Source of the DNA: Calditrichia bacterium
Lineage (GTDB): Bacteria; Calditrichota; Calditrichia; RBG-13-44-9; J075
Assembly: GCA_965227145.1 (NCBI GenBank)
Contig: OZ245730.1
Span: 2,916,646 to 2,980,645 of the forward strand
Reading direction: 5' to 3'
DNA length: 64,000 bases
In this document: piece after piece, positions 480 through 29,713 of the stretch
How positions within the stretch are numbered: the stretch's first letter is position 1
How the letters are laid out: every line of letters starts with the position of its first letter
Notes under the pieces: model-generated
What the model was told of the DNA's origin: nothing
Database searches by the model: none
Seen by the model: the letters and a program-made list of their open reading frames with translations, nothing else
Made by a program: the position numbers and the translations under genes

Positions 480-778
480 CTAAACTTCAAGCCAAATAGA
501 AAGCCAATTTGAGGGATAAATATTTAAGAGTCGGTTTTCGTAAGTGAAAGGTTTTCAGTAGTTTATATTTTTGGTTGTTTGCAAGTTTGTAAGTTTTGTG
601 TGTTTTTTCTCTGTATTTTTTTCGTGGTAAAATTCAGTTTTTGCGGTTCTAACTTTCGGTTGTACCGGACGCAACCGCAGGGCTGTGCTTTCGTTCTAAA
701 TTTTAGTTTGTGCAAATGGGTTGTAAAACATCAGCAAATTCGGTGCAAGTGTTGCGCCGGTAAACCGTGTTGTTAGAT

Positions 779-1017
779 TCGGTTTTGTGTTTTCAGAAAA
801 GAAAAACTCCAAAAAATGGAGCAATTGCCAACGCCAAAATAATATTTAAAAAGATGTCCGTAAACGAAAGTGAAAGCTGATTTGACGAATAATATTTAAG
901 AGTCGGCTTTTCGTAAGTGAAAGGTTTTCAGTAGTTTATATTTTTGGTTGTTTGTAATTCAGTAAGTTTTGTGTGTTTTAGCGGCGTATTTTTTCGTGGT
1001 AAATTTAAGTGTTGCGG
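779..1017 (+). repeat. ORF-less cassette family A (11 copies, ~240 bp body)
   Basis: Bodies at 779-1017, 1851-2089, 3364-3603, 3736-3975, 4108-4348, 6582-6820, 9732-9971, 11817-12057, 12565-12806, 13932-14173, 14306-14545. Shared 5' half up to TATTTAAGAGTC, then the tail TTTTCGTAAGTGAAAGGTTTTCAG...TTCGTGGTAAA...TTGCGG. No conserved ORF. Confidence 0.88.
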
Positions 1018-1150
1018 TTCTAACTTTCGGTTGTACCGGACGCAACCGCAGGGCTGTGCTTTTGTTCTAAATTTTAGTTTGTGCAAAATGGGTTGTAAAA
1101 TATTAGCAAATTCGGTGCATGTGTTGCGCCGGTAAACCGTGTTGTTAGAT

Positions 1151-1394
1151 TCAGTTTTGTATTTTTCAAAAAAGAAAAGACTCCAGAAAACGGAGCAATT
1201 GCAAACGCAGAAATAATTTTTAAAGGACGTCCGCAAACCAAAGAGTAAGCCAATTTGCGGGATAAATATTTAAGAGTCCGCGCTTCAAAGAGTGTGGTTT
1301 TGGCAGGTTTTATTTTTACTTTTTTGATTTCTGTCAGTGTTTTGATCAGTCAAAATTTTTTTATTTTTCAGTGCAATGCAATTTAGTGTTGTGG
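1151..1394 (+). repeat. ORF-less cassette family B (2 copies)
   Basis: Bodies at 1151-1394 and 19632-19877. Same 5' half as A, different tail (GTGTGGTTTTGGCAGG...CTGTCAGTGTTTTG). Confidence 0.85.
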
Positions 1395-1526
1395 TTCTAA
1401 CTGTCGGTTGTACCGGACGCAACCGCAGGGCTGTGCTATCTTTCTAAATTTTAGTTTGTGCAAAATGGTTGTAAAATATTAGCAAATTCGGTGCAAGTGT
1501 TGCGCCGGTAAACCGTGTTGTTAGAT

Positions 1527-1718
1527 GGCAAAACGAAAAAGACGAAGAACATTTTGGGCTGTTGAGAAAACATAAACTCTTATCTGTTTTGGTTTACCAT
1601 TTAGTGGTGAACGTTCGTTTTTTGGTGCCAGTTTCTACATGTCGTTTGTTTGCGTCGTTGGTTGCCAACGCATATTTTTTCTGCGGTGGTTGTTTGTGCG
1701 CAAGTACGTTTTGTGCTG
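1527..1718 (+). repeat. ORF-less cassette family D (8 complete copies + 1 partial, ~190-203 bp body)
   Basis: Bodies at 1-50 (partial), 1527-1718, 7552-7742, 12939-13132, 13264-13466, 13599-13798, 14678-14870, 17230-17429, 20009-20209. Conserved hairpins GTTTACCA-N5-TGGTRAA and CGTTGG-NTG-CCAACG. Not alignable by eye to the A/B/C 5' half. Confidence 0.88.
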
Positions 1719-2220
1719 CTCTAACTGGCGGTTGTACCGGACGAAACCGCAGGGCTTGCGGTTTCTTTCTAAAAAATATTTGTGCAAATAAGTTGTATAA
1801 AATCAGCTAATTATGTGCCGGTGTTTCGCCGGTAAACCTTTTTGTTAGATTCAGTTTTGTATTTTCAGAAAAGAAAAACTCCAAAAAATGGAGCAATTGC
1901 CAACGCAAAAATAATATTTTAAAGATGTCCGCAAACCAAAGCGAAAGCTAATTTGATGAATAATATTTAAGAGTCGATTTTTCGTAAGTGAAAGGTTTTC
2001 AGTAGTTTATATTTTTGGTTGTTTGTAAATCTGTAAGTTTTGTGTGTTTTTCGCGGTGTATTTTTTCGTGGTAAAATTTAGTGTTGCGGTTCTAACTTTC
2101 GGTTGTACCGGACGCAACCGCAGGGCTGTGCTTTTGTTCTAAATTTAAGTTTGTGCAAACAGTTGTAAAATATCAGCAAATTCGGTGCATGTGTTGCGCC
2201 GGTAAACCGTGTTGTTAGAT

Positions 2221-2465
2221 TCAGTTTTGTATTTTTACAAAAAAGAAAAGACTCCGAAAAATGGAGCAAAAGCCAACGCAAAGTAAATATTTTAAAGACG
2301 TCCTCTTTTCGTAAGTGAAAGCCAGTTTGCGGGATAAATATTTAAGAGTCGGTTTAATTTAGTGCTGGGTTTTTGCAAGTTTATATTTTGGTTTTGTGGT
2401 CAACTGCGGGCTTCTGTAAAAATGTAAGTCAGTTGGCGGAGCTTTGTAAAAACAAAGTGTTGCGT
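2221..2465 (+). repeat. ORF-less cassette family C (4 copies)
   Basis: Bodies at 2221-2465, 6205-6449, 12189-12433, 19254-19499. Same 5' half as A, tail with CAACTGCGGGCTTCTGTAAAAATGTAAGTCAGTTGGCGGAGC. Confidence 0.87.
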
Positions 2466-2609
2466 TTCTAACTTTCGGTTGTACCGGACGCAACCGCAGG
2501 GCTGTGCTTTTGTTCTAAAAAATATTTGTGCAAATGGGTTGTAAAAATTCAGCAAATTGTGGCGTAGTGTTGCGCCGGTAAACCTTTTTGTTAGCCTAAA
2601 GGAGAATCG

Positions 2610-3218
2610 ATGCCAAGGTTTTCAATCTTCAGTGATGAAAAAAGACTTGAACAATCGATAAAAGATGTTCATTCAAAACTCAAAGATGGTTGTGACACTA
2701 AAGCGATACCAGAATCATTGGCAGATATTTACCAGGAAAAAGAGATTGAAAAATTGTTGCAAATAATAAAAAGCATAAATAATGAAAATCCAAATTCCTT
2801 AAAAAAAGCTATCTTTAAATCTGCTGCTTTTACCGCATTGCTGATAAATTTCTTAACTGTATATTTACTTTTTTATGATGGAATAAATCAAGATTGGAAT
2901 CAATCAATTCGGTTATTTTTATTGTTGTCAAGTAACATTATTGTAATAATTGGCATACTAAATAGATATACTTTTTTATATATTTTTGCAATCGCTTGTG
3001 GCATTTTAATGTTGTATCCTGAGGCTCAATTCAGACTTCTAACAAAATATTTATCAACAACATTGTCTATTTATATTATCGCGGTAACTGTTGTAATAGC
3101 ACTTGTGTTAATATTTTTTAGCTGGATTTTAAAACGTTCTAGCTCAATAGAATTGTATTCGGTAAGTAAAATTCTAAAACAAAATAGTTTAGACTTTGAA
3201 GAATTTTTAACAAAGTAA
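2610..3218 (+). CDS. Cassette-borne membrane protein (~4 TM helices)
   Basis: AAGGAG RBS before the ATG; four hydrophobic segments; fills the cassette between attC sites. Confidence 0.8.
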   Translation: MPRFSIFSDEKRLEQSIKDVHSKLKDGCDTKAIPESLADIYQEKEIEKLLQIIKSINNENPNSLKKAIFKSAAFTALLINFLTVYLLFYDGINQDWNQSIRLFLLLSSNIIVIIGILNRYTFLYIFAIACGILMLYPEAQFRLLTKYLSTTLSIYIIAVTVVIALVLIFFSWILKRSSSIELYSVSKILKQNSLDFEEFLTK

Positions 3219-4499
3219 GGTTAATATTTTTGGCTAACTGTCGGTTGTACCGGACGCAACAGCAGGGCTGTGCTTTTGTTCTAAATTTTAAGTTGTGCAA
3301 ATGGGTTGTAAAACATCTGCAAATTTGGTGCAAGTATTGCGCCGGTAAACCGTGTTGTTAGATTTAGTTTTGTGTTTTCAGAAAAGAAAAAACTCCAAAA
3401 AATGGAGCAATTGCCAACGCTGAAATAATATTTTAAAAGATGTCCGCAAACGAAAGTGAAAGCTGATTTGACGAATAATATTTAAGAGTCGGTTTTTCGT
3501 AAGTGAGAGGTTTTCAGTAGTTTATATTTTTGGTTGTTTGCAGTTTCGTAAGTTTTGTGTGTTTTTCGCTGTATTTTTTTCGTGGTAAATTTTAGTGTTG
3601 CGGTTCTAACTTTCGGTTGTACCGGACGCAACCGCAGGGCTGTGCTTTCGTTCTAAATTTTAGTTTGTGCAAATAAGTTTAATAAAATCAGCAAATTGTG
3701 GCGTAGTGTTGCGCCGGTAAACCGTGTTGTTAGATTCAGTTTTGTGAGTTTTTAAAAGAAAAGGCTCCAAAAAATGGAGCAATTGCCAACACAAAAATAA
3801 TATTTTAAAGATGTCCGCAAACCAAATCGAAAGCTAATTTGATGAATAATATTTAAGAGTCGGTTTTACGTAAGTGAAAGGTTTTCAGCAGTTTAATTTT
3901 TGATTGTTTGTAAATCTGTAAGTTTTGTGGGTTTTTCGCGGCGTATTTTTTCGTGGTAAAATTCAGTTTTTGCGGTTCTAACTTTCGGTTGTACCGGACG
4001 AAACCGCAGGGCTGGCAGTTTCTTTCTAAAAAATATCTGTGCAAATAAGTCAAATAAAATCAGCCGGTTGTGTGCAAGTGTTTCGCCGGTAAACCTTTTT
4101 GTTAGATTCAGTTTTGTATTTTCAGAAAAGAAAAACTCCAAAAAATGGAGCAATTGCCAACGCAGAAATAATATTTTAAAAGACGTCCGCTTTCCGTAAG
4201 TGAAAGCCAATTTGATGAATAATATTTAAGAGTCGGTTTTTCGTAAGTGAAAGGTTTTCAGTAGTTTATATTTTTGGTTGTTTGTAAAACCTTAAGTTTT
4301 GTGTGTTTTTCGCAGTTTATTTTTTCGTGGTAAAATTCAGTGTTGCGGTTCTAACTTTCGGTTGTACCGGACGCAACCGCAGGGCTGTGCTTTCGTTCTA
4401 ATAAATATTTTGTGCAAATAAGTAAAATAAAATCAACCGGTTGTGTGCAAGTGTTTCGCCGGTAAACCTTTTTGTTAGGACTAAAAAACTTGTAAAAAA

Positions 4500-4883
4500 A
4501 TGACAGAAATTATCTCAGAGTTAGAAAAAGAATATTACAAATACGGTAAAATCATAGAAGCTCCGAAAAAATTTTTACAATTTCATACGATACCGCAACA
4601 TGATGGAAGAGCACATATAGAATATGAAGGCAGCGACTTAATTTATGTGATTACTGAAAGAGGAATTAGATTTAATGAAAAAAGGACTACAAACCCGGAT
4701 GAATTATTATTCTGGTTAATAAGTGATCTAACATTTGAGATAGCAAACGAACTCAGTATAAATGAATGTAAAACAAATGAAGAATATAGAAAAAAACTAT
4801 TTTTAAGGCAGGAAGCACTAATAGGTCGCATAAACCAAGAATGGGAAAAACAATTAAAAAAATATCATGATAAACTATTGTAA
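4500..4883 (+). CDS. Imm63-family immunity protein (cassette-borne)
   Basis: Motifs DGRAHIE, YVITERG, DELLFWL, F.RQE.L...I...W resemble polymorphic-toxin immunity family Imm63. Confidence 0.7.
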   Translation: MTEIISELEKEYYKYGKIIEAPKKFLQFHTIPQHDGRAHIEYEGSDLIYVITERGIRFNEKRTTNPDELLFWLISDLTFEIANELSINECKTNEEYRKKLFLRQEALIGRINQEWEKQLKKYHDKLL

Positions 4884-5061
4884 ATCTTTGTATTACCTGC
4901 AACTGTCGTCCTAACTTCCGGTTGTACCGGACGCAACCGCAGGGCTGTGTTTTTGTTCTAAATTTTAGTTTGTGCAAAAGGGTTGTAAAATATCAGCAAA
5001 TTCGGTGCAAGTGTTGCGCCGGTAAACCGTGTTGTTAGACTTTATTAATAAATATTTTAAA

Positions 5062-5817
5062 ATGACAGATGCTCAGATAAAATATGGTACATGGAACATC
5101 AAGAAAGGATTTGTCCCTCCAAAGGACTCCGTGACCTTGTTTGACGAATACAGACCTTCTGACAAGCTCAGCTTGGTCGTCACACAAACGAATTTAACCT
5201 CATATCAACAACAAAAAAATATAGATGAGTGGTGTGACAAACTACCTGCATTGAGTGAAGTAAAGTTCCTTTGGATGCCTTCTAAAGTGAATCAGAAAAT
5301 TTTTGACGCAGTTTGTAAAATGTCAAACATTGAAGGTTTGTGGATAAAATGGAGTGGAATCAAAAAATTAGATCAATTAGCCCAACTTAAAAATCTAAAG
5401 TATTTTAAGCTTGGAAGTTCGTCACAAGTTGAAAGCATAGAAGCCCTTGAAAGCTTGACAAATCTTGAAACTTTGGAATTAGAGCAATTAAATAAAATAA
5501 CAAACTTCAATGTAATCGGGAGCTTAACTCAATTGCAAGGGCTAGGTCTTGATGGTAGTTTGTGGACAGCTCAAAAAATTGATTCTTTGGAACCAGTCAG
5601 CTATTTAGAGAAATTGAAATATTTAACTACAACCAATTCTCAAATCAAAGACAAATCATTTGACCCATTATTAGGATTGACTGAATTAGTGCGGTTTAAT
5701 TGTTCATGGAACTATCCTGAGTCAGAATTTGAAAAATTGAATTCATTGCCTAATCTAAAGTACGGGAATATTGAGACTTCCTGGAAAGAATTGAAAGCCA
5801 AAATGAGAATAGAATAA
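5062..5817 (+). CDS. Leucine-rich repeat protein (cassette-borne)
   Basis: Repeated LxxLxxLxxLxL units (LAQLKNLKYFKL, LESLTNLETLEL, IGSLTQLQGLGL). Start taken at the first ATG after the attC. Confidence 0.85.
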   Translation: MTDAQIKYGTWNIKKGFVPPKDSVTLFDEYRPSDKLSLVVTQTNLTSYQQQKNIDEWCDKLPALSEVKFLWMPSKVNQKIFDAVCKMSNIEGLWIKWSGIKKLDQLAQLKNLKYFKLGSSSQVESIEALESLTNLETLELEQLNKITNFNVIGSLTQLQGLGLDGSLWTAQKIDSLEPVSYLEKLKYLTTTNSQIKDKSFDPLLGLTELVRFNCSWNYPESEFEKLNSLPNLKYGNIETSWKELKAKMRIE

Positions 5818-6971
5818 AAAGTGTACCAAAAGAACAATAAGCAATAGCTTCCTTCGGGATGCTAATGCTCTCAGCCAAAAGAATTTTAACAAAACCAATA
5901 TTAAAAAAATTCCTTTTTTTAAATTGGTGATAAAGCAGATTTTGACAGTGATTCTTATCCGTAATTGTGGTTTATAACCACTGTAGTAAAATCGGGTCTT
6001 CTGTTATCTGTCAGTGTTTTTTGGTCATTCAACGTGTTGTAAATTGGTCTTGTGCAAACCGTAGCTCTGCTCGTCTAACTATCGGTTGTACCGGACGCAA
6101 CCGCAGGGCTGTGCTTTTGTTCTAAGTTTTAGTTTGTGCAAATGGGTTGTAAAATATCAGCAAATTGTGGCGTAGTATTGCGCCGGTAAACCGTGTTGTT
6201 AGATTTCGATTTTGTATTTTTTCAAAAAAGAAAGACTCCAAAAAATGGAGCAAAAGCCAACGCAAAGTAAATATTTTAAAGACGCCCTCTTTTCGTAAGT
6301 GAAAGCCAGTTTGCGGGATAAATATTTAAGAGTCGGTTTAATTTAGTGCTGGGTTTTTGCAAGTTTATATTTTGGTTTTGTGGTCAACTGCGGGCTTCTG
6401 TAAAAATGTAAGTCAGTTGGCGGAGCTTTGAAAAAACAACGTGTTGCGGTTCTAACTTTCGGTTGTACCGGACGCAACCGCAGGGCTGTGCTTTTGTTCT
6501 AAATTTTAGTTTGTGCAAATGGGTTGTAAAATATCAGCAAATTCGGTGCAAGTGTTGCGCCGGTAAACCTTTTTGTTAGATTCAGTTTTGTATTTTCAGA
6601 AAAGAAAAACTCCAAAAAATGGAGCAATTACCAACGCAAAGTAAATATTTTAAAGACGTCCGCTTTTCGTAAGTGAAAGCCAGTTTGCGGGATAAATATT
6701 TAAGAGTCGGTTTTCGTAAGTGAAAGGTTTTCAGTAGTTTATATTTTTGAGTGTTTGTAAATCTGTAAGTTTTGTGTGTTTTTCGCAGTTTGTGTTTCGT
6801 GGTAAAATTCAGTGTTGCGGTTCTAACTTTCGGTTGTACCGGACGCAACCGCAGGGCTGTGCTTTTGTTCTAAATTTTAGTTTGTGCAAATGGGTTGTAA
6901 AATATCAGCAAATTTCGGCGTAGTGTTGCGCCGGTAAACCGTGTTGTTAGAGCATCAGGGATAATAGAAGA

Positions 6972-7412
6972 ATGAATAAATGCTTGTATATGATGTTGAA
7001 GTTGATTCTGCTTATTCTATTTTTAATTCTTCCAACCAATATTTTTTCAAATAACGAAAAAAGTGAAAATTTTGATTATTTCATTATTGATTTTTTTGCA
7101 AATCAAGAATTCCAAAAAAGTAGAACGCTTTTTCCATTGGAGTATACTTATTATGATCCTGGGCTTGAAGTAGATAACGATATAATTACAGTATATTTAT
7201 CCGAGTCTGATTGGAAACCGATGACGGATACAAGCTATATTCAAAGTGAGTATTTCCATAGGATATATGACAATTTCGATGCAAAACTACGCGATACCGG
7301 AAAACGTGTATTTGCATACGAAGGGAGTGAGACTTGTCTCAAAATTTATCTATATTTTGAGCTTAGGGAAGAAAAGTGGTTCTTAATAAAAAAAGAGGAT
7401 TTCAGTTCGTAA
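6972..7412 (+). CDS. Secreted protein, DUF4348-like (cassette-borne)
   Basis: Signal peptide; ENFDYFI..F...EFQKSR..FPL motif and C-terminal YFE....KWFL. Confidence 0.6.
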   Translation: MNKCLYMMLKLILLILFLILPTNIFSNNEKSENFDYFIIDFFANQEFQKSRTLFPLEYTYYDPGLEVDNDIITVYLSESDWKPMTDTSYIQSEYFHRIYDNFDAKLRDTGKRVFAYEGSETCLKIYLYFELREEKWFLIKKEDFSS

Positions 7413-8287
7413 TCGGTTCCTCTAACTTTCGGTTGTACCGGACGCAACCGCAGGGCTGTGCTTTCGTTCTAAATTTTAGGTTGTGCAAATGGGTTGTAAA
7501 ATATCAGCTAATTCGGTGCAAGTGTTGCGCCGGTAAACCGTGTTGTTAGAATGCAAATTAAAAAAGACGAAAAACATTTTGGGTTGTTGGAAAAACATAA
7601 ACTATTATTTGTTTTGGTTTACCAGTTTGTGGTAAACGTTCGTTTTTTGGTACCAGTTTCTACATGACGTGTTTTTGCGTCGTTGGTTGCCAACTCGCGT
7701 TTTGTCTGCGGTGGTTGTTTGTGTGCAATTTATTGTGTGCTTTTCTAACTGGCGGTTGTACCGGACGCAACCGCAGGGCTGGCAGTTTCTTTCTAAATTT
7801 TACTTTGTGCAAATAAGTTGTATAAAATCAGCTAATTATGTGCCGGTGTTTCGCCGGTAAACCTTTTTGTTAGATTTTTAAAATCAAAGTTTATGAAGAA
7901 TATTATAATCATTATTCTATTTCTTGTACAATCAACGATAGCTCAATCATCCAAAGTTGAATATTGGGAGCACTTTTCCGAAAATGATAAACTAGAAATT
8001 CTTAAAGATTCTAGAGTAACAGAGACAATGAAAGCAATTTATAATAGTGTATCACCTGAAGAAATTGATTTTGAAGGGATAGAAACATTATTAGATACGA
8101 TATGTATATTTAATAACAAATTACAACCACTCTATTTCTTTTTATTTAACAACCTAATAATAATCGCGGACGGGTATCTTGCAGAATCAATGGGATATTA
8201 TTCATATAAAATTATAAATCAGGATGCTATTTATGTATTGAAATATCTACAGGAAAAGCCGGAAATCAGGGCTAAATACATAAGTTA

Positions 8288-9393
8288 TACTCACACTAAA
8301 TTGGTTTGGGAAAATCCCATCAATTGAATATCTTTATCCATGCTAGAATTAGATGACAACACCCGGCGCGAATTAAAGCTTTTGCAGAAGCGTCCGTCCA
8401 ACAAACGCATTTATATCAAAGTCACTGTATTGTTGATGCTGGACAAAGGTCTTTCTGTCCAGGTGATTGCCGATTTTTTAGGCATTGATGACAACACCGT
8501 CTACCGCTATCGTGACAGCTATCTCACCAACGGACTGAAAGATTATCTGGCATCCAATTATTTTCGATACAATGGCAAACTCACTGATGAAGAAAAAGCC
8601 CGGCTCGTTGCAGAACTGACTGAATACCTGTATCCAAGCAGCGCTGCTGTTGGTGAATTTATCGCGGCGACCTTCAACAAGCACTATTGTGAAAGTGCTG
8701 TTTCCACACTGCTGAACCGTTTGGGCTTTGTTTACAAAAAGACCAAATCCGTTCCTTCAAAAGCGGATTCGGCTGCCCAAAGACGGTTTGTTAAAAAGCT
8801 ACACAGATTGTTGAAAAAACAGGATGTTAATGCTATTTTCTATTTCAACGACGCAGCGCATCCCCAACACAATACCCGTCCGGCATATGGCTGGATACCA
8901 AAGGGTGAGGATGTTGGTATTCCCTCAAATACCGGTCGTAAACGCCTGAATATTAATGCTGCCATCAACGCCGAAGATGTTGGCGACATTGTTTTTCGTG
9001 AAGATGAACAGATCAATTCCCAATCAACCATCGCCCTTTGGGAAGCCCAGCATGCGAAACATCCGGGTAAAAAGATCTATAACATCTGTGACAACGCCAG
9101 ATACTACAAAAGTCACCTCATTCAGGAATGGTTAAAGAAGAATAAATGGTGCAAAGTGATATATTTACCGGCATATTCGCCAAACCTGAACATTATCGAA
9201 CGATTATGGAAGTATTTACGAAAATCGGTCATCGATTATTTTTACTATGAAAAGTATAGTGATTTCAAGGTTGCAATATTGACATTTTTTGAAACGATTG
9301 AGCAGCATAGGCAACCCTTAACTTCTTTGCTTACGCTTAATTTTCACATCCCATAAAAATGGTTATTTGTCCCTAACCAATTTCTTTTGGGTA
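8288..9393 (+). mobile_element. IS630-family insertion sequence
   Basis: Imperfect terminal inverted repeats TACTCACACTAAATTGGTTTGGGA / revcomp TACCCAAAAGAAATTGGTTAGGGA; TA target duplication at 8286-8287 and 9394-9395. Confidence 0.93.
8340..9356 (+). CDS. IS630-family transposase
   Basis: N-terminal HTH; DDE motifs FNDAAHP, ICDNARYY, LPAYSPNLNIIERLW. Confidence 0.95.
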   Translation: MLELDDNTRRELKLLQKRPSNKRIYIKVTVLLMLDKGLSVQVIADFLGIDDNTVYRYRDSYLTNGLKDYLASNYFRYNGKLTDEEKARLVAELTEYLYPSSAAVGEFIAATFNKHYCESAVSTLLNRLGFVYKKTKSVPSKADSAAQRRFVKKLHRLLKKQDVNAIFYFNDAAHPQHNTRPAYGWIPKGEDVGIPSNTGRKRLNINAAINAEDVGDIVFREDEQINSQSTIALWEAQHAKHPGKKIYNICDNARYYKSHLIQEWLKKNKWCKVIYLPAYSPNLNIIERLWKYLRKSVIDYFYYEKYSDFKVAILTFFETIEQHRQPLTSLLTLNFHIP

Positions 9394-10194
9394 TATTTAG
9401 GTTTTGAGTTTTATCATGCAGAAGATTCAAAATTTGAATTGGAGAAGTGGCAGTCAGAAATTATTAATAAGAACACTAAACATCTGGGGCAAGCTGATAT
9501 AAAAAGGATTGGGCAGTTTATAACTGCCTGTATTGCTGAAGCTGAACAAATAAAGATGGATGCTGACAAAAAAGATTGATGACAATAAAGAGAAAGCACA
9601 TCTAACTTTCGGTTGTACCGGACGCAACCGCAGGGCTGGCAGTTTCTTTCTAAAAAATATTTGTGCAAATAAGTAAAATAAAATCAGCCGGTTGTGTGCA
9701 AGTGTTTCGCCGGTAAACCTTTTTGTTAGAATGAAATTCCGGAAAAGTTGAAAAGAAAAAACACCAAAAAATGGAGTAATTGCCAACGCAAAGTTAATAT
9801 TTGAAAGACGTCCGCAAACGAAAGTGAAAGCTAATTTGACGAATAATATTTAAGAGTCGGTTTTACGTAAGTGAAAGGTTTTCAGTAGTTTATATTTTTG
9901 GTTGTTTGCAATTTTGTAAGTTGTTTGTGTTTTTCGCAGTTTGTGTTTCGTGGTAAAATTTAGTGTTGCGGTTCTAACTTTCGGTTGTACCGGACGCAAC
10001 CGCAGGGCTGTGCTTTTGTTCTAAATTTTAGGATGTGCAAATGAGTTGTAAAATATCAGCAAATTCGGTGCAAGTGTTGCGCCGGTAAACCGTGTTGTTA
10101 GGATGCCAAAATGTGACAATTTATGATTTTTTTTCGAATAATATAATTCTATCGGAATTCATTCAAACTCACTAATTCTTTTAAGGGGCAAATC

Positions 10195-10827: not shown

Positions 10828-11104
10828 AGTGAAAATGAACCAATTTAAAGCAGAGCTATTTGTTTAGCTTTTGTAACTAATGTGTTAATTTCTGTATGGT
10901 CTGCAAACTTAAATTTGTTCTAATAATTTGATCTAAATTTAATGTTGCAATCCTAACTTTCGGTTGTACCGGACGCAACCGCAGGGCTGTGCTTTTGTTC
11001 TAAATTTTATTTTGTGCAAATGGGTTGTAAAACATCAGCAAATTTGGTGCAAGTGTTTCGCCGGTAAACCGTGTTGTTAGATTCAGTTAAGGAGAAAAAT
11101 TCAA

Positions 11105-11539
11105 ATGAGTAAGAATGTTAAAACAATTGTTTTTACGGTAATCGGACTTTTAATCGGTTATGTGGGATCGCAATTTCTTATTGATACAATTTTCAAGAAA
11201 CCTAATATTGAGGAAATTCTTGTGCAAGCAGCGCAAGAGATGAATAAATCTTGCCCAATAATTTTAGACCAAGATACAAGACTCGATACTACATTGGGTG
11301 GACCTGGGAAAAACTTTTCATATTTTTATACATTAGTAAACTATTCAAAAGAAGAAATTAATCAGGATACATTGATATCCTATTTAAAACCAAACATTAT
11401 TAATAATGTAAAAACCCATCCTCAAATGGCAATATTTAGAGAGAATGATATTACAATGAATTATAATTATAAAGACAAAGATGGAGTTTTTTTATTTATT
11501 ATTTCAGTCACACCGGAGGAATATAAAAATCAATTGTGA
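11105..11539 (+). CDS. Cassette-borne membrane-anchored hypothetical protein
   Basis: AAGGAG RBS; N-terminal TM helix; NKSCP...DQDTRLD motif. Confidence 0.75.
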   Translation: MSKNVKTIVFTVIGLLIGYVGSQFLIDTIFKKPNIEEILVQAAQEMNKSCPIILDQDTRLDTTLGGPGKNFSYFYTLVNYSKEEINQDTLISYLKPNIINNVKTHPQMAIFRENDITMNYNYKDKDGVFLFIISVTPEEYKNQL

Positions 11540-14500
11540 TGCAATCCTTCAAGATATAATCTAAAGAGTCCGTTTTTCGTAAGTAAAAGGTTTTCAGTAG
11601 TTTATATTTTGGTTGTTTGCAAATCCGTAAGTTTCGTGTGTTTTTTTGCAACGTATTTTTTCGTGGTAAAAGTCGGTTTGTGCGGTTCTAACTGTCGGTT
11701 GTACCGGACGCAACCGCAGGGCTGTGCTTCTGTTCTAAAAAATATCTGTGCAAATCAGTTTAATAAAATCAGCAAATTATGGCGTAGTGTTGCGCCGGTA
11801 AACCGTTTTGTTAGATTAAAATTCCGTTAATTTCAAAAAGAAAAACTCCAAAAAATGGAGTAATTGCCAACGCAGAAATAATATTTTAAAAGACATCCGC
11901 GAACGAAAGTGAAAGCCAATTTGATGAATAATATTTAAGAGTCGGTTTTACGTAAGTGAAAGGTTTTCAGTAGTTTATATTTTTGGTTGTTTGTAAAACC
12001 TTAAGTTTTGTGTGTTTTTCGCAGTTTATTTTTTCGTGGTAAAATTCAGTGTTGCGGTTCTAACTTTCGGTTGTACCGGACGCAACCGCAGGGCTGTGCT
12101 TTCGTTCTAAAAAATAATTGTGCAAATAAGTTTAATAAAATTAGCAAATTCGGTGCAAGTGTTGCGCCGGTAAACCGTGTTGTTAGATTCAGTTTTGTAT
12201 TTTTACAAAAAAGAAAAGACTCCGAAAAATGGAGCAAAAGCCAACGCAAAGTAAATATTTTAAAAACGTCCTCTTTTCGTAAGTGAAAGCCAGTTTGCGG
12301 GATAAATATTTAAGAGTCGGTTTAATTTAGTGCTGGGTTTTTGCAAGTTTATATTTTGGTTTTGTGGTCAACTGCGGGCTTCTGTAAAAATGTAAGTCAG
12401 TTGGCGGAGCTTTGTAAAAACAAAGTGTTGCGTTTCTAACTTTCGGTTGTACCGGACGCAACCGCAGGGCTGTGCTTTTGTTCTAAAAAATATTTGTGCA
12501 AATGGGTTGTAAAAATTCAGCAAATTGTGGCGTAGTGTTGCGCCGGTAAACCTTTTTGTTAGATTGAAAATTCCGTTAATTTCGAAAAGAAAAACTCCCA
12601 AAAATGGAGTGATTGCCAACGCAAAGTTAATATTTTAAAGACGTCCGCTTTTCGTAAGTGAAAGCCTATTTGCGGGATAAATATTTAAGAGTCCGTTTTT
12701 CGTAAGTGAAAGGTTTTCAGTCGTTTATATTTTGTTTGTTTGCATTTTCGTAGGTTTTGTGTGTTTTTCGCGGCGTATTTTTTCGTGGTAATTTTTAGTG
12801 TTGCGGTTCTAACTTTCGGTTGTACCGGACGCAACCGCAGGGCTGTGCTTTCGTTCTAAATTTTAGTTTGTGCAAATGGGTTGTAAAATATCAGCAAATT
12901 CGGTGCATGTGTTGCGCCGGTAAACCGTGTTGTTAGAAAGCAAAATGAAAAAAACAAAAACCGTTTCTGATTTTTGGGAAAACATAAGTTTGTATCTGTT
13001 TTGGTTTACCAGATTGTGGTGAAAGTTCGTTCTTTTTGGTGGCAACTTCTACATGTCGTGTGTTTGCGTCGCTGGTTGCCAACGCGCGTTTTGTCTGCGG
13101 TGGTTTTGTCTGTGCAAGTTCGTTTTGTGCATTTCTAACTTTCGGTTGTACCGGACGCAACCGCAGGGCTGTGCTTTCGTTCTAAAAATTATCTGAGCAA
13201 ATAAGCTTAATAAAATCAGCAAATTCGGTGCAAGTGTTGCGCCGGTAAACCGTGTTGTTAGAAGGCAAATTGAAAAAGGCTAAAAAGTCAAAAACCGATT
13301 TTGGCTGTTGGGAAAACATAAGTTTATATCTGTTTTGGTTTACCAGATTTTGGTGAAAGTTCATTCTTTTTGGTGGTCTTTTCTACGGGTCGTGTGTTTG
13401 CATCGTTGGTTGCCAACGCGCGTTTTGTCTGCGGTGGTTGTTTGTGTGCAAGTTCGTTTTGTGCGGTTCTAACTTTCGGTTGTACCGGACGCAACCGCAG
13501 GGCTGTGCTTTTGTTCTAAATTTTAGTTTGTGCAAAATGGTTGTAAAATATCAGCAAATTGTGGCGTAGTGTTGCGCCGGTAAACCGTGTTGTTAGAAGG
13601 CAAATCGAAAAAGGCTAAAAAGACAAAAACCGATTTTGGTTGTTGGAAAAACATAAACTCTTATTTGTTTTGGTTTACCAGTTTGTGGTGAACGTTCGTT
13701 TTTTGGTGCCAGTTTCTACATGTCGTGTGTTTGCGTCGTTGGGTGCCAACGCACGTTTTGTCTGTGGTGGTTGTTTGTGTGCAAATTGGTTTGTGCTGTT
13801 CTAACTGGCGGTTGTACCGGACGAAACCGCAGGGCTGGCAGTTTCTTTCTAAATTTTAAATTGTGCAAATAAGTTTAATAAAATCAGCCGGTTGTGTGCA
13901 AGTGTTTCGCCGGTAAACCTTTTTGTTAGATTCGGTTTTGTATTTTTTCAAAAAAGAAAGACTCCAAAAAATGGAGCAAAAGCCAACGCAAAGTAAATAT
14001 TTTAAAGACGTCCGCTTTTCGTAAGTGAAAGCCAGTTTGCGGGATAAATATTTAAGAGTCCGTTTTTCGTAAGTGAAAGGTTTTCAACAGTTTAAATTTT
14101 TGGTTGTTTGTAAATCTGTAAGTTTTGTGTGTTTTTCGCTGTATTTTTTTCGTGGTAAAATTTAGTGTTGCGGTTCTAACTTTCGGTTGTACCGGACGCA
14201 ACCGCAGGGCTGTGCTTTTGTTCTAAGTTTTAGTTTGTGCAAATGAGTTGTAAAATATCAGCAAATTGTGGCGTAGTGTTGCGCCGGTAAACCGTGTTGT
14301 TAGATTCAGTTTTGTATTTTCAGAAAAGAAAAACTCCAAAAAATGGAGCAATTGCCAACGCAGAAATATTATTTTAAAGACGTCCGCTTTTCGAAAGTGA
14401 AAGCCAGTTTGCGGGATAAATATTTAAGAGTCGGTTTTCGTAAGTGAAAGGTTTTCAGTAGTTTATATTTTTGAGTGTTTGTAAATCTGTAAGTTTTGTG

Positions 14501-15035
14501 TGTTTTTCGCGGTGTATTTTTTCGTGGTAAAATTTAGTGTTGCGGTTCTAACTTTCGGTTGTACCGGACGCAACCGCAGGACTGTGCTTTTGTTCTAAAT
14601 TTTAATTTGTGCAAATTGGTTGTAAATCATCTGCAAATAGTGGCGTAGTGTTGCGCCGGTAAACCGTGTTGTTAGAATGCAAATTAAAAAAGACGAAAAA
14701 CAATTTTGGGCTGTTGGGAAAACATAAATTTGTATCTGTTTTGGTTTACCATTTTGTGGTGAACGTTCGTTTTTTGGTGCCAGTTTCTACATGTCGTGTT
14801 TTTGCGTCGTTGGTTGCCAACGCGTGTTTTGTCTGCGGTGGTTGTTTGTGTGCAAGTTCGCTTTGTGCTGTTCTAACTGGCGGTTGTACCGGACGAAACC
14901 GCAGGGCTGGCAGTTTCTTTCTAAGTTATAGTTTGTGCAAATAAGTTTAATAAAATCAGCCGGTTGTGTGCAAGTGTTTCGCCGGTAAACCTTTTTGTTA
15001 GCCGTTACTATTATCTTTAAATAATTTCTTATGAA

Positions 15036-15707
15036 ATGAAAACTTTACTTCTTATTTACATTTTAACGTTTACCTGTTATCCGCAAATATCAACTTCTGA
15101 AATTGTTGGTATTTATAGCCAAAATAGCGGATTTACTCAACAGATTCTTGAATTAAATTCAGATAATACTTTCCAATATAGATATTTTTTTGATGTGGGT
15201 GGATGGAGGTTACCTATTCACGGTAACTGGAAAATAAAGAGTGATACAATATTTTTATTTTCTTCACCATTACCTGAGATACAAGAGGTTAAAGAATCAG
15301 AAAGCAGCGACAGTGTAATAACAATAACTGTCTATAACAGAGAAAGAGAAGAGGCTTTTTTATATCCTCAAATAAAACTAAATGGTTGGCATCCAGATTA
15401 TGACCCATCAATTCATGTTATCTCAACGGATTCTGTAAAATTTGGGCCATTTCTTGTTAGTAAAAATGAGTATAATTCGCCTATAAATAACATCAAACTA
15501 TATATTGGTAATTTTGTATTGTCATATATACCAAGCGATAAAAATTCAGACACTTTTGAATTAATTCTAAATTTAACCGAAGACGAAATTTTCAATGAAA
15601 TTTTTTTTGATAATGAGCCATATCTTTATCTAAATAACATGCTTTATCAACGGTTTAATGGAGAGTTTGTGACAGAATATCCATTAATAAAAGTCAAAAA
15701 ACAGTAG
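15036..15707 (+). CDS. Cassette-borne secreted hypothetical protein
   Basis: Signal peptide; beta-rich (LELNSDNTFQY, GNWKIKSDTIFL). Confidence 0.75.
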   Translation: MKTLLLIYILTFTCYPQISTSEIVGIYSQNSGFTQQILELNSDNTFQYRYFFDVGGWRLPIHGNWKIKSDTIFLFSSPLPEIQEVKESESSDSVITITVYNREREEAFLYPQIKLNGWHPDYDPSIHVISTDSVKFGPFLVSKNEYNSPINNIKLYIGNFVLSYIPSDKNSDTFELILNLTEDEIFNEIFFDNEPYLYLNNMLYQRFNGEFVTEYPLIKVKKQ

Positions 15708-15871
15708 TTGAAGTTTATTAAATATTATCAAAAACTCGGCTAACTTTCGGTTGTACCGGACGAAACCGCAGGGCTGGCAGTTTCTTTCTAAAAAATATTT
15801 GTGCAAATAAGTTTAATAAAATCAGCCGGTTGTGTGCATGTGTTTCGCCGGTAAACCTTTTTGTTAGAAAT

Positions 15872-16252
15872 ATGATTGTTGAATACAAAAACGGCCTAAA
15901 ATTTGAATTGTTTGACGATTTTGCAATAATTTATTTCCCAGAAGAATACTGGGTTGGTAGTTGGGGTTCAATGCTGGATTTGGTTAGACATAAGATAATA
16001 AGCCATGTTAAATATATTTTAATTGATTATTCAAATGTAAAGTTTATTGGTGATGGTAGCTTTGAGTCTGCAATTCTGAGAGAAGAATTCCAACAATTAG
16101 GCGGATCAGATGTTATTCATATATCCGTTCCTGAATGTATTAAAAATCTTTGGAAATTGGCAGATCCTAAAAATGAAGTAAAACCTTTTCCCGAATTTAT
16201 GAGTAAAGAAAACGCACTAAAATACATAACACTTAACCACAGAAAAAATTGA
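15872..16252 (+). CDS. Cassette-borne hypothetical protein, weakly STAS-like
   Basis: ATG 2 nt after the R' heptamer; ILIDYSNVKFI..S and a terminal 'ENAL' resemble anti-sigma-factor antagonist (STAS) domains. Confidence 0.6.
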   Translation: MIVEYKNGLKFELFDDFAIIYFPEEYWVGSWGSMLDLVRHKIISHVKYILIDYSNVKFIGDGSFESAILREEFQQLGGSDVIHISVPECIKNLWKLADPKNEVKPFPEFMSKENALKYITLNHRKN

Positions 16253-16476
16253 GATTACCTGAATAAAGTTAATTGATGCTTTTTAATGGTATAGTTTTTC
16301 CCAAAAAGCAAAATATTATTAAACTATTTCTAACTTTCGGTTGTACCGGACGAAACCGCAGGGCTGTGCTTTCGTTCTAAAAAATATTTGTGCAAATAAG
16401 TTTAATAAAATCAGCAGATTATGGCGTAGTGTTTCGCCGGTAAACCTTGTTGTTAGATTCGGGCAAAATTAAACAT

Positions 16477-16980
16477 ATGGAAATAAAGGTCAAAAAACCG
16501 ATAATGTTTTTATCAATATTCGTCATTGTCGTAGCTGTTGATGCAGCTTTTAGTGGAATAACTTTGGGTAGAGATTTGATACTCAGTTGGATAATAATCC
16601 TAGGAATTCCTCTTGAATTGGTTGCTATTCTGTTTCTTATGCCAACGCTTCGCTTGTATTTCTCTGAAAAAGGCTTAAGGAGATATTGGAAAATTGGGAT
16701 AGGTAAGTATATTCTTTGGGAGGATAACCGGTTCTCACTTCAATGGAACAATGTATCAAAAGTGTTTTCAGCTTTTCCACTTTGGGTCCCTTTAAGAATG
16801 ATCGGAATTGGAGGACGAACAAATCGTCGTTATTTAGTATTTTATGTTGGCTTTGTTACAACCCAAACAAAGGAATCGATATTGTACATAGCAACTCACG
16901 TGAAAAAAGAAGTGATAAGCAACGACGTTAAGAAACTAGTCAAAAAGTATAACCAAAAAAGAGACACTCTCAAAATGTAA
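16477..16980 (+). CDS. Cassette-borne membrane protein
   Basis: Two N-terminal TM segments; first ATG after the attC. Confidence 0.7.
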   Translation: MEIKVKKPIMFLSIFVIVVAVDAAFSGITLGRDLILSWIIILGIPLELVAILFLMPTLRLYFSEKGLRRYWKIGIGKYILWEDNRFSLQWNNVSKVFSAFPLWVPLRMIGIGGRTNRRYLVFYVGFVTTQTKESILYIATHVKKEVISNDVKKLVKKYNQKRDTLKM

Positions 16981-17586
16981 GTTTTGGCAAAGTTTATAAT
17001 TCGGTCTTTGTCAATTCTGCGCTGCGGGTTAAAAGTAAGTCAGGTGGCGGAGCTTTGTAAAAATTTAGTGTTGCGTTTCTAACTTCCGGTTGTACCGGAC
17101 GCAACCGCAGGGCTGTGCTTTCGTTCTAAATTTTATTTTGTGCAATTGGTTGTAAAATATCAGCAAATTCGGTGCATGTGTTGCGCCGGTCTCGAAGGGA
17201 TGCCTTCGGCATAAACCGTGTTGTTAGAAGGCAAATCGAAAAAGGCTAAAAAGACAAAAACCGTTTTGGGCTGTTGGAAAAACATAAACTCTTATCTGTT
17301 TTGGTTTACCATTTTGTGGTGAACATTCGTTTTTTGGTGCCAGTTTCTACATGTCGTGTTTTTGCGTCGTTGGTTGCCAACGCATATTTTTCTGCGGTAG
17401 TTGTTTCTGTGCAAATCGGTTTTGTGCAGTTCTAACTTTCGGTTGTACCGGACGCAACCACAGGGCTGTGCTTTTGTTCTAAAAAATAATTGTGCAAATA
17501 AGTTTAATAAAATCAGAAAATTGTGGCGTAGTGTTGCGCCGGTAAACCGTGTTGTTAGCGACAAGAAATGTGAAGTGGACTTTAAT

Positions 17587-18516
17587 ATGGGAATTCATAA
17601 CAATTGTATTTCAACTAAGAATTGTTTCAAGTATTGCAGGTTATTCAGTAAGCTTTTGTGTTGGTTCAGTTTTGGCATTTTTATATTAACAACTATGAAT
17701 AGTTACGCTCAAACGGACAATAATGGGAATCCAATATTTAATTCAATTTCGATAAATGAGCAACAATTTACCGAGTATAATCTAATATCAAACTATTACA
17801 CACTAATAAACAATATCGAGAATAAAAACTCGTCGGTTTATGTTTCAGATACACCAACGCTAAATGAAATTGAAACTTCAGCTATTAAACTTCCATCAGA
17901 TTTCTTTATTATTGCTAAGCTACAAAATGTATCTCACTTAATAATGTTGGTTAGTTCCCCTGAAAAGAAATTTCGAGTTATTAATATTGCAACAGAGAAT
18001 GAATTAGAGTTTGATTGTGATCTGAATGGTGATATCACAGAAAATCGGGCAAATGAAATAATCCAAGAAAAATTTGATCCAAAAGCAAAAATTGAAAGTG
18101 GAATTCTCCATTTTAATGGCAAAAAACTTAAGATTATACCCAATGAGTCAATTAACAATGCAGTTCTTTCATTGATTATGAAAGAAAAATTTTATGAATC
18201 ACAACCTTCTGAATTCAAAATTCCAACGAAAGACGAGCTAAAAGAAATTATTTTAAAAGAATCTACGGAAGGTGGTAAATTTGATTTTTTTTCTGAAATC
18301 AAAGAAAAAGAATATAACGGTGTTCAGATAAAACCCGGAGTATTTACAACATTAGAGTCGATAGCATTATACAAATGGGGACGTGCAAATTATGATTTAG
18401 GAATTAATACCATTGAAGACGCCTATGCTATATATGCTGAATTTCGAAATCGTGAGATTACAGATAAGGAAAAAGCTTATATCAAAAAAGGATTTGAAAA
18501 AGAATGGGAAAAATAA
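17587..18516 (+). CDS. Cassette-borne secreted hypothetical protein (start uncertain)
   Basis: Long ORF filling the cassette; hydrophobic stretch followed by SYA-QTD cleavage-like site. The listed extension to 17401 runs through an attC. Confidence 0.75.
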   Translation: MGIHNNCISTKNCFKYCRLFSKLLCWFSFGIFILTTMNSYAQTDNNGNPIFNSISINEQQFTEYNLISNYYTLINNIENKNSSVYVSDTPTLNEIETSAIKLPSDFFIIAKLQNVSHLIMLVSSPEKKFRVINIATENELEFDCDLNGDITENRANEIIQEKFDPKAKIESGILHFNGKKLKIIPNESINNAVLSLIMKEKFYESQPSEFKIPTKDELKEIILKESTEGGKFDFFSEIKEKEYNGVQIKPGVFTTLESIALYKWGRANYDLGINTIEDAYAIYAEFRNREITDKEKAYIKKGFEKEWEK

Positions 18517-18726
18517 ATTTTTCATGGTCGTTATATTCCTAACAATTTGCCTGATGGTCGCTAACTTCCGGTTGTACCGGACGCAACCGCAGGGCTGTGC
18601 TTTTGTTCTAAATTTTAGTTTGTGCAAATGGGTTGTAAAATATCAGCAAATTGTGGCGTAGTGTTGCGCCGGTAAACCGTGTTGTTAGATGGGTTCAATA
18701 TAAAACATTCAAAGTGAACACTAAAT

Positions 18727-19137
18727 ATGCTTTTATTTAAAATAATAATTTTAATATTAATATTATGTACATTCTTTTTTGGACAAGAAATTAATCAAAA
18801 CTTTCTAAATACAATTTGGATATGTGAAGTCACAAGCGAAGCCAATGATTCATTGTATCTCAATCTTGACTTGTCATTTATTAACTATAATTGTGAAATA
18901 GATGAGCACACCTATGGAACATTTAATATTTATAAAGACACTTTATATTTGTCTCAGGAATTTGGAGAGTTTGATTCTACATTTAAAGAAGGATCTATAC
19001 ATAGAAGAGGAAAAGCAATATATAAATATTTAATTTTAGACCAAGATAATATTAAACTAGTTTGTTACAAGGAAAATAATGCATTGCAAGGAATTTTAGA
19101 ATTTGATTGTGAAAATATTTTAAAAAAGGTAAAGTAA
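18727..19137 (+). CDS. Cassette-borne secreted hypothetical protein
   Basis: Signal peptide; beta-rich body. Confidence 0.7.
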   Translation: MLLFKIIILILILCTFFFGQEINQNFLNTIWICEVTSEANDSLYLNLDLSFINYNCEIDEHTYGTFNIYKDTLYLSQEFGEFDSTFKEGSIHRRGKAIYKYLILDQDNIKLVCYKENNALQGILEFDCENILKKVK

Positions 19138-19148
19138 ATAAATCACTT

Positions 19149-19253
19149 TTTTAACCCGTACTGTACGCGACACTTGCGTCGCGCGATGAATTTCGTGAAA
19201 GTCCTGGGCAACCGCCCTATTCCGGTGCGCATGTAAGTACTAAATCGTTAGAT
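19149..19253 (+). other. Foreign-type attC site
   Basis: TTTTAAC...GTACTGTACGCGACAC / GTGCGCATGTAAGTAC...GTTAGAT imperfect inverted repeat at the exact position an attC is expected, unrelated in sequence to the resident family. Confidence 0.7.
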
Positions 19254-20430
19254 TTAGTTTTGTATTTTTCAGAAAAAAAAAAAGACTCCGGAAAACGGAG
19301 CAATAGCCTACACAAAATTGATATTTAAAAGGAGCCCGTATTCGAAAGTGAAAGCCAAGTTGCAGGATTTGTTTTTAAGAGTCGGTTTACTTTAGTGCCA
19401 GTTTTTCGCAAGTTTATAATTTGGGTTTTGTATTCAACTGCGGGCTTCTGTAAAAATGTAAGTCAGTTGGCGGAGCTTTGAAAAAACAAAGTGTTGCGGT
19501 TCTAACTTTCGGTTGTACCGGACGCAACCGCAGGGCTGGCAATTTCTTTCTAAGTTTTAGTCTGTGCAAACAGTTGTAGAATATCAGCAAATTTGGTGCA
19601 AGTGTTGCGCCGGTAAACCGTGTTGTTAGATTCAGTTTTCCATTTTTTCAAAAAAGAAAAGGCTCCAAAAATGGAGTAATTGCCAACGCAAAGTTAATAT
19701 TTTAAAGACGTCCGCTTTCCATAAGTGAAAGCCAATTTTCAGGATAAATATTTAAGAGTCCGCGATTCAAAAAGTGTGGTTTTGGCAGGTTTTATTTTTA
19801 CTTTTTCTGTTTTCTGTCAGTGTTTTGGTCAGTCATAATTTTTTATTTTTCTGTGCAGTGCAAATCAGTTTTTGCGGTTCTAACTTTCGGTTGTACCGGA
19901 CGCAACCGCAGGGCTGTGCTTTCGTTCTAAGTTTAGTTTGTGCAAAATGGTTGTAAAACATCAGCAAATTTAGTGCATGTGTTGCGCCGGTAAACCGTGT
20001 TGTTAGAATGCAAATCGAAAAAGGCTAAAAAGACAAAAACCGATTTTGGCTGTTGGAAAAACATAAACTCTTATCTGTTTTGGTTTACCATTTTGTTGTA
20101 AATGTTCATTTTTTGGTGCCAGTTTCTACATGTCGTGTTTTTGCGTCGTTGGCTGCCAACGCGTGTTTTGTCTGCGGTGGTTGTTTGTGTGCAAGTTCGT
20201 TTTGTGCGGTTCTAACTTTCGGTTGTACCGGACGCAACCGCAGGGCTGTGCTTTCGTTCTAAATTTTAGTTTGTGCAAATGGGTTGTAAAACATCAGCAA
20301 ATTGTGGCGTAGTGTTGCGCCGGTCCCGATGGGATGCCTTCGGCATAAACCTTGTTGTTTTGCAAGCTGTACTTGAGTCAGTCACTAAAATATTACTTTA
20401 TTTATCTACGTTTAAATGGTTTTTCAATAC

Positions 20431-29540: not shown

Positions 29541-29564
29541 TCAAACATCCGGACACGAAATTTG

Positions 29565-29708: not shown

Positions 29709-29713
29709 AAAAT

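What the first reader, a model, noticed from the sequence alone, without database searches (positions are those of the whole stretch)
779..19877. Modular blank cassettes switch tails at a fixed TAAGAGTC junction
Seen: families A, B and C share the same ~120-bp 5' module ending in the near-invariant AATATTTAAGAGTC (e.g. 891-904), then continue into three different tails of nearly equal length. The gene/tail junction at 11564 (AAGAGTC) falls at the same motif. Within the 5' module, alternative blocks (CGCAAACSAAAG vs CGCTTTTCGTAAG; AATTTGAYGAATAAT vs AGTTTGCGGGATAAAT) assort in a patchwork between copies. Inference: the motif may be a second recombination, nicking or processing site inside cassettes, or a boundary between a constant scaffold and a variable module.
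Basis: partly seen in the sequence, partly recalled or inferred. Interest (0 to 1): 0.72.

Follow-up and report, generated by a model that had tools for sequence, protein, structure and literature searches.

The report
Patchwork gene-less integron cassettes
These gene-less cassettes of a large bacterial integron share a front half and carry different back halves, but their swap points are spread along the whole cassette, so the TAAGAGTC motif likely marks only where shared sequence ends among copies shuffled by ordinary homologous exchange, not a new cutting site.

Summary
The window is the distal end of a ~240-cassette chromosomal integron; 142 of 239 parsed cassettes are gene-less. The shared ~130-bp head, the near-invariant motif, the three tails and the patchwork are real. 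The 'fixed site' reading fails. Tails A, B and C are alignable over their first 45 and last 20 bp. Linkage decays smoothly with no dip at the motif, and only 6.6 of 75 inferred switches fall there. Chimeras switch at other conserved islands, and an 8-copy family uses tail C without the motif. Family D and the attC sites, which lack the motif, are just as mosaic. At 11564 decayed head sequence runs on upstream to 11536, and gene/tail junctions scatter from -36 to +85. Best reading: a homology boundary in paralogues shuffled by short-tract homologous exchange. One oddity remains: about ten gene cassettes end in H-type blank tails joined near the stop codon, none keeps the head's first 100 bp and none uses family D. 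That leaves a small chance that these blanks are templates for making gene cassettes.

The parts
773..904 (+). Shared head of an H-type gene-less cassette (family A example); begins at the TT after the attC crossover point
891..904 (+). AATATTTAAGAGTC motif: last block shared by A, B and C. Other exact window copies start at 519, 1265, 1962, 2337, 3477, 3848, 4221, 6321, 6695, 9845, 11930, 12305, 12680, 14047, 14419, 19747
870..876 (+). GTGAAAG island about 30 bp upstream of the motif end: family E leaves the head here, and three gene/tail joins (c202, c50, c221) fall here
905..1019 (+). Tail A (11 full A cassettes in the window: 773, 1845, 3358, 3730, 4102, 6576, 9726, 11811, 12559, 13926, 14300)
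933..947 (+). Second conserved island (AGTTTATATTTTTGG type) inside the tails, where A1-B2, C1-F2 and C1-B2 chimeras switch
1020..1144 (+). attC site (example; ~124 bp to the G of GTT). The bottom strand of another copy (12805-12940) folds into a long hairpin, z -4.4
1145..1396 (+). Family C cassette (motif 1265-1278, tail C 1279-1396); second copy 19626-19879
2215..2467 (+). Family B cassette (motif 2337-2350, tail B 2351-2467); others at 6199, 12183 and, behind a foreign-type attC, 19248-19501
1521..1720 (+). Family D gene-less cassette (no motif; 8 in the window): control family, equally mosaic
12629..12712 (+). Internal tandem duplication in H cassettes: 12629-12664 is an out-of-register copy of the motif plus the start of tail A (12680-12712); the CGCTTTTCGTAAG head allele equals the start of tail A
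   Evidence: p 0.0003; AAA-type copy p 0.003
11077..11687 (+). Gene cassette c221: 12 bp matching the H head start, ORF 11105-11539 (144 aa, no Pfam hit), decayed head end 11536-11563, then AAGAGTC and tail A
   Evidence: 11059-11603 is one contig in runs X1, X2, X8 and 11074-11603 in X4
178..648 (+). Gene cassette c202: ORF 189-479, then blank-derived sequence from about 499 (34 bp upstream of the motif end), with motif and tail A
16453..17078 (+). Gene cassette c233: ORF 16477-16980 whose last codons overlap a C/E-type tail start, followed by a diverged B-type tail end
806..822 (-). Terminator-like 5-bp hairpin with U run on the minus strand of the head; function untested
892..921 (-). Weak antisense promoter candidate in family A only (TTCACT-17-TAAATAT, -10 inside the motif); 4.2 bits, within the shuffle range

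Best explanation
These are paralogous gene-less integron cassettes whose swap points are spread along the whole cassette, and TAAGAGTC likely marks only the end of the sequence that three anciently diverged tail types still share. Shown: the integrase platform is intact, cassette bodies are duplicated together with their own attC, and heads, tails, family D and attC sites are all mosaics at a 10-20 bp scale. Inferred: RecA-type homologous exchange or short-tract gene conversion among about 86 H copies and 240 attC sites keeps the heads in one pool. Tails about 35% diverged would be too different to exchange internally, so a swap between families can only resolve in the head or in short shared islands, and the tail appears to 'switch' at the last shared block. 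Equal tail length follows from common descent. The cassettes' own function is not shown; most likely they are selfish or weakly regulatory passengers copied by IntI.
For: IntI 322 aa, TIGR02249 472 bits, at G000:C1:2798175-2799143, with 240 attC cores on one strand. In 42 distinct A cassettes r2 falls from 0.26 (<=10 bp) to 0.04 (>150 bp), four-gamete pairs rise from 17% to 73%, rho -0.33, p 0.001; residual linkage across the motif -0.004 and 0.0. Mosaic parse of 60 cassettes: motif window holds 6.6 of 75 switches (8.7%, length share 6.2%), rank 65 of 255; 2 of 22 cross-family switch intervals touch it. Linkage of head blocks to tail family fades upstream: p 0.003, 0.014, 0.35. Same decay in family D (rho -0.32) and attC (rho -0.19), which lack the motif. 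Of 90 identical-body pairs 70 share their own attC and 19 the upstream one; most of the others differ by block swaps inside attC, also on gene cassettes, which a crossover at G|TT cannot make; c45 and c211 differ only in a 7-bp patch. Chimeras at other islands: c58, c9/161/89, c21/233. RecA and MutS present. Boucher et al. proposed gene conversion for paralogous non-coding cassettes and 59-be sites (PMC1382264, passages).
Against: The motif is the most conserved block across families and is intact in the one blank cassette found in congener G001, which could mean selection; within family A the start of tail A is as conserved (0.988). Family E joins tail C in the same register (at GTC|CGC) without TAAGA, and one near-identical pair (c189 versus c136/c191) breaks at +2. 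Homogenisation is lopsided (130 bp of head, 20 bp of tail end), which exchange seeded from attC does not explain. A 10-20 bp mosaic scale is finer than usual RecA tracts (recalled), and high r2 at <=10 bp partly reflects multi-base block alleles. Copies are not independent, so the p values overstate. The non-random gene/tail joins are not explained.
Confidence: 0.72

Rival explanations
1. H-type blank cassettes are attC-bearing templates for making new gene cassettes. Synthesis would start at attC, copy the tail and switch to an incoming gene at or near its stop codon, mostly in a zone from -36 to +7 around the motif; the fine patchwork would be a by-product of template switching.
For: Among 75 distinct non-blank bodies about 10 independent genes end in a partial H-type tail. 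Joins lie at about -36, -34, -32, -27, -20, +3, +6, +56, +64, +85, and -17 in G001. None keeps the head's first 100 bp (p about 0.003 if uniform) and none uses a partial D tail (p about 0.007) (windows chosen after seeing the data). No attC left-end remnant lies between gene and tail. Stop codons overlap blank-derived sequence in c99, c221, c83 and c233; c99 ends within a few residues of its homologues' ends. c221 and the c182/233 family also start with 9-12 bases of H head.
Against: Most gene cassettes carry no blank tail. No reverse transcriptase in the genome (0 matches). One-sided homology at attC plus a microhomology join, or deletion between neighbours, would give the same products. c76 and c25 are doubtful cases, and decay shifts apparent joins. 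Two of 53 untailed cassettes also share 9 bases with the head.
Confidence: 0.15
2. The motif is kept because it is the -10 element of an antisense promoter (with -35 in tail A) for a ~90-nt RNA ending at the head hairpin; tails would be promoter alleles.
For: With a promoter model trained on 26 of 35 tRNA upstream regions of this genome, the best minus-strand site in 38 of 43 A cassettes has its -10 in the motif; spacing is fixed in 38 of 42. A minus-strand terminator-like hairpin lies in the head. Gene-less Vibrio cassettes often have promoter activity (PMC11014356).
Against: Score 4.2 bits against 9.6-18.2 for the training promoters and a shuffle 95th percentile of 8.8; B, C and E do not give this site as their best. 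No Rfam match; one whole A cassette folds no better than shuffles (z 0.37).
Confidence: 0.07
3. TAAGAGTC is a dedicated second recombination or nicking site (secondary IntI site or HUH target) at which tails are exchanged.
For: Near invariance and confinement to the array; a Y1 HUH transposase lies about 6 kb upstream of intI, one of 4 in the genome.
Against: No breakpoint excess; the adjacent block is linked to tail family; TAAGAGTC holds no GWT on either strand, the attG consensus (10.1101/2022.09.11.507474, passages); the HUH gene is flanked by its own unrelated repeats; blank bodies have only 3 short weak hits outside the array; family E lacks the motif.
Confidence: 0.04

Closest known systems
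Paralogous non-coding cassettes of Vibrio superintegrons (Boucher et al. 2006, PMC1382264; passages read)
   Same: Large share of the array (59% here; up to 49% there), highly paralogous, limited to close relatives (1 of 30 related genomes); gene conversion among cassettes and attC was proposed there.
   Different: There homologues are described as similar over their whole length. Here one head pool carries interchangeable tail blocks, chimeras exist, and gene cassettes carry partial blank tails; conversion is supported by linkage and block-swap data.
Gene-less promoter cassettes of Vibrionaceae (Blanco et al. 2024, PMC11014356; abstract, introduction, start of methods and passages read) and Treponema (PMC6557892; search listing only)
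   Same: Gene-less cassettes interspersed among gene cassettes in a large chromosomal array.
   Different: No host-type promoter above shuffle level in H, E or D bodies; activity untested.
attG secondary integrase sites (bioRxiv 10.1101/2022.09.11.507474; passages read)
   Same: Would be an IntI-used site other than attI and attC.
   Different: Needs a GWT core, absent from TAAGAGTC; no inserted-cassette products and no breakpoint excess at the motif.
Group IIC-attC intron model of cassette formation (Leon and Roy 2009; seen only as a reference title in PMC8946536, content recalled)
   Same: Joins a gene to an attC-bearing sequence near its 3' end.
   Different: No reverse transcriptase found in this genome; the trailers here come from blank cassettes.

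Membership tests
Sedentary chromosomal integron | Integron integrase gene | tested here: met
   TIGR02249 472 bits, over cut-off, no stops; 322-aa ORF
Sedentary chromosomal integron | attI with a GTT crossover next to intI, and a same-strand attC array | tested here: met
   First cassette starts at a GTTAGA about 950 bp from intI (attI identity inferred from position); 240 attC cores on +, 0 on -
Sedentary chromosomal integron | attC folds as a bottom-strand hairpin | tested here: met
   One site folded: z -4.38, 0 of 200 shuffles as good
Sedentary chromosomal integron | Cassette body moves with its own attC | tested here: met
   70 of 90 identical-body pairs share their own attC, 19 the upstream one
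Gene-less (non-coding) cassettes | No ORF over 150 bp between attC sites | tested here: met
   Longest ATG ORF 38 aa or less in the rows shown (output was cut in the middle); BLASTX not run
Gene-less (non-coding) cassettes | Paralogous and confined to close relatives | tested here: met
   142 of 239 cassettes in 5 groups; match in 1 of 30 relatives; 5 genome contigs motif hits have no flanking likeness; 0 metagenome hits
Gene-less promoter cassettes | Promoter activity | not testable with these tools
   No raw RNA reads; in-silico scores within shuffle range
Site-specific recombination site (attG-like) | GWT core at the crossover | tested here: not met
   TAAGAGTC has no GWT on either strand (sequence; consensus); a GTT follows in B and some A copies only
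Site-specific recombination site (attG-like) | Breakpoints concentrated at the site | tested here: not met
HUH (TnpA/RAYT) nick site | Motif tied to the hairpin repeats of a cognate HUH gene | tested here: not met
   Flanks of the TnpA near intI (1 of 4 examined) carry other repeats; no exact motif outside the array
HUH (TnpA/RAYT) nick site | Cleavage at the motif in vitro | not testable with these tools
   needs purified protein

The most novel reading that the evidence does not exclude
H-type blank cassettes are the templates on which new gene cassettes are built: attC and tail are copied and joined to an incoming gene at its stop codon in the zone around GTGAAAG...TAAGAGTC, and the 10-20 bp patchwork records template switching in that synthesis. 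The array would hold about ten snapshots of cassette birth.
Probability: 0.15. Interest if true: 0.85.

Novelty: new variant of a known kind. Interest (0 to 1): 0.32.

Why it matters
As it most likely stands, this is a well-resolved case of gene-less integron cassettes and attC sites being shuffled at a 10-20 bp scale by exchange that the integrase alone cannot perform. It gives data for the gene-conversion idea of Boucher et al. and shows that a sharp 'junction' in a repeat family can be only a homology boundary. It does not reveal a new recombination site. If the gene/tail joins are primary, the array would bear on how cassettes are made, a long-standing open question (recalled), and would name a testable template.

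Tried and rejected
Rfam scan of the window: 0 matches. Folding of one A cassette as minus-strand RNA: z 0.37. Generic sigma-70 scan of 700-4500: 10 sites versus 9.3 in shuffles. Host-trained promoter model: nothing above shuffles in blank bodies. Reverse transcriptase: 0 in own genome. HUH link: own repeats, unrelated. Blank bodies outside the array: 3 hits of 25-32 bp at E about 7e-4, taken as chance. Motif scans of public collections: 5 chance hits in genome contigs, 0 in metagenomes; an attC pattern gave 1 short contig. G002: one 1-mismatch motif without flanking likeness. The integrases of G001 and G002 lie near contig ends and their main arrays were not found in the five stretches fetched, so modularity could not be compared across species. 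GARD and RDP were not available; linkage, four-gamete and a copying-model parse were used instead. Rows dropped: identical bodies were collapsed before all statistics; chimera c58 was left out of the tail comparisons and the A-only linkage test; the 8 E copies were left out. Whole blank cassettes behind foreign-type attC sites (c40, c64, c78, c177, c236) and the weak c93/213 hit were not counted as gene/tail joins. One search stopped on a script error and was rerun. Paper searches listed no description of head/tail mosaic blank cassettes; the library lacks most subscription papers and no supplements were read.
Full report
Setting. The window is G000:C1:2916646-2980645 of a 6.28-Mb single-contig genome. 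An attC core pattern gives 240 matches, all on the + strand: 239 between window positions -116,286 and 20,220, and one at 28,194. An intact integron integrase lies just upstream of the array on the minus strand. One attC folds as a bottom-strand hairpin, z -4.4. Of 239 parsed cassettes 142 are gene-less: 58 of family A, 16 B, 4 C, 8 E (same head, no motif) and 56 D (another family). Positions below are relative to the first base after AAGAGTC; c-numbers count cassettes from attI.

Observation. The motif is real and specific: 69 exact copies, all in the array, none outside, identical in 52 of 60 distinct A/B/C bodies. Heads form one pool (identity 0.84-0.87 within and between families) while tails are family-specific (0.89-0.96 within, 0.63-0.67 between). 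Contigs from four public runs carry the gene-plus-tail stretch around 11564, so it is not an assembly error; one of them may be the source of this genome. A head-plus-tail-C cassette with an intact motif is also in congener G001, 1 of 30 relatives searched.

Are the tails unrelated? Only in part. The first 45 bp and last 20 bp align better than dinucleotide shuffles; the middle ~55 bp does not. The tails are collinear relatives, which explains their equal length. The truly unalignable module starts about 45 bp after the motif, behind a second island.

Is the motif a swap point? No excess was found. In 42 distinct A cassettes linkage decays smoothly (r2 0.26, 0.14, 0.10, 0.08, 0.06, 0.04 with distance; p 0.001) and shows no dip across the motif. 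A copying-model parse of 60 cassettes places 6.6 of 75 switches in the 17-column motif window, rank 65 of 255 (at a higher switch cost 4.7 of 50, rank 46). Cross-family switches lie from -114 to 0 and at +37 to +46 and +115; 2 of 22 touch the motif. The head block next to the motif is linked to tail family (16 of 43 A, 0 of 17 B+C), and the link fades upstream (p 0.003, 0.014, 0.35); free swapping at the motif would erase it. Direct chimeras switch elsewhere. c58 (G000:C1:2829243-2829496) has the start of tail A and the end of tail B. Family E leaves the head at GTGAAAG, lacks the motif, and rejoins tail C; c9, c161 and c89 then leave tail C at the second island. The c21/c233 trailers are C-start, B-end. 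Family D and the attC sites, with no motif, show the same decay. Identical bodies, gene cassettes among them, carry attC sites that differ by block swaps. The CGCTTTTCGTAAG head allele equals the start of tail A within an internal ~45-bp duplication, so it likely arose by out-of-register conversion or is the ancestral duplicate. Caveat: copies are related, so p values overstate.

The gene/tail junction. At 11564 high identity starts at AAGAGTC, but the 28 bases before it still match the head end (p 0.0025), so the join is at the stop codon (11537-11539), about -36. Among 75 distinct non-blank bodies about ten independent genes carry partial H-type trailers, joined at about -36, -34, -32, -27, -20, +3, +6, +56, +64 and +85 (the -27 and -20 cases in the E frame; the last two doubtful); a decayed case in G001 joins at -17 or further up. 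None is at 0. They are not random either: none keeps the head's first 100 bp, none is a partial D tail (p about 0.003 and 0.007, windows chosen afterwards), no attC left end lies between gene and tail, and four stop codons overlap blank-derived sequence. For c99 the tail supplies the last codons within a few residues of its homologues' ends.

Enzymes. RecA and MutS are present. No reverse transcriptase was found. A HUH transposase 6 kb from intI is flanked by its own repeats. TAAGAGTC lacks the GWT core of secondary integrase sites.

Function. A promoter model trained on this genome's tRNA leaders (TTGAYW-17-TAWATTT, 26 of 35 leaders) finds nothing above shuffles in blank bodies. The best minus-strand site in 38 of 43 A cassettes puts its -10 in the motif, at 4.2 bits, upstream of a small minus-strand hairpin. 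This is a lead only; no RNA reads exist.

Mechanism. Shown: integrase-type duplication of body with own attC (70 of 90 pairs) and dispersed fine-scale exchange. Inferred: the exchange is homologous recombination or gene conversion; diverged tails restrict cross-family swaps to the head and to short islands, so the motif looks like a junction. Not explained: the lopsided homogenisation, the very fine scale and the bias of gene/tail joins. These keep a template-for-cassette-birth model alive at about 15%.

Known relatives. Paralogous non-coding cassettes and proposed gene conversion: PMC1382264 (passages). Promoter-bearing gene-less cassettes: PMC11014356 (first of eight parts plus passages). 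attG sites: 10.1101/2022.09.11.507474 (passages). PMC8618304 and PMC8946536 (passages) added nothing on mosaic blanks. Seven searches listed no account of head/tail modular blank cassettes; the library is incomplete and no supplements were read.

Verdict. Observation partly confirmed; dedicated-site reading not supported; homology-boundary reading supported. New variant of a known kind, interest 0.32.

Noticed in passing
window 17191-17212, 20325-20346, 28299-28320, 29670-29691; G000:C1:2914878 and 2646022; L008: A ~22-bp hairpin (CCGAAGGGATGCCTTCGGCA type) is inserted at the same base of several attC sites, also in one upstream attC, in one attC-like end far outside the array and in G001; related hairpins occur elsewhere in the genome.
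   Followed up: partly
window 26061-26150, 28186-28330, 29558-29940: Decaying attC sites beyond the array end among ordinary genes; 29700-29940 is a partial copy of gene cassette c202. G001 has the matching region with other cassettes.
   Followed up: partly
attC loops, e.g. window 1071-1099 (-): Many attC sites carry a minus-strand promoter-like pair TTTACA-16/17-TAAAAT; host-model score 4.3 bits versus shuffle median -3.2 and 95th percentile 5.1.
   Followed up: partly
window 8340-9356: IS630-like transposase (DDE_3 plus HTH) inside cassette c218; a cassette of the same length and ends occurs at c71.
   Followed up: no
G000:C1:2799560-2799850: A 96-aa ORF lies between intI and the first cassette, divergent from intI.
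   Followed up: no
G000:C1:2791959-2792423: Y1 HUH transposase flanked by direct copies of a ~130-bp repeat and five tandem ~50-bp units with small palindromes.
   Followed up: partly
G000:C1:2818295-2818601 (family E): The E-specific block holds a GGGAGT...ACTCCC hairpin followed by a T run, terminator-like on the sense strand (read; not scanned).
   Followed up: no
window 4500-4883 and 5062-5817: Cassette genes with Imm63 and leucine-rich-repeat domains; 9 of the 14 array proteins scanned have no Pfam hit.
   Followed up: no
window 19140-19250; G000 c40, c64, c78, c177: Gene cassettes with foreign-type attC sites sit among the native ones, each followed by a whole blank cassette.
   Followed up: partly
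window 61726-63285: Three ~630-bp-spaced repeats inside a large minus-strand ORF.
   Followed up: no
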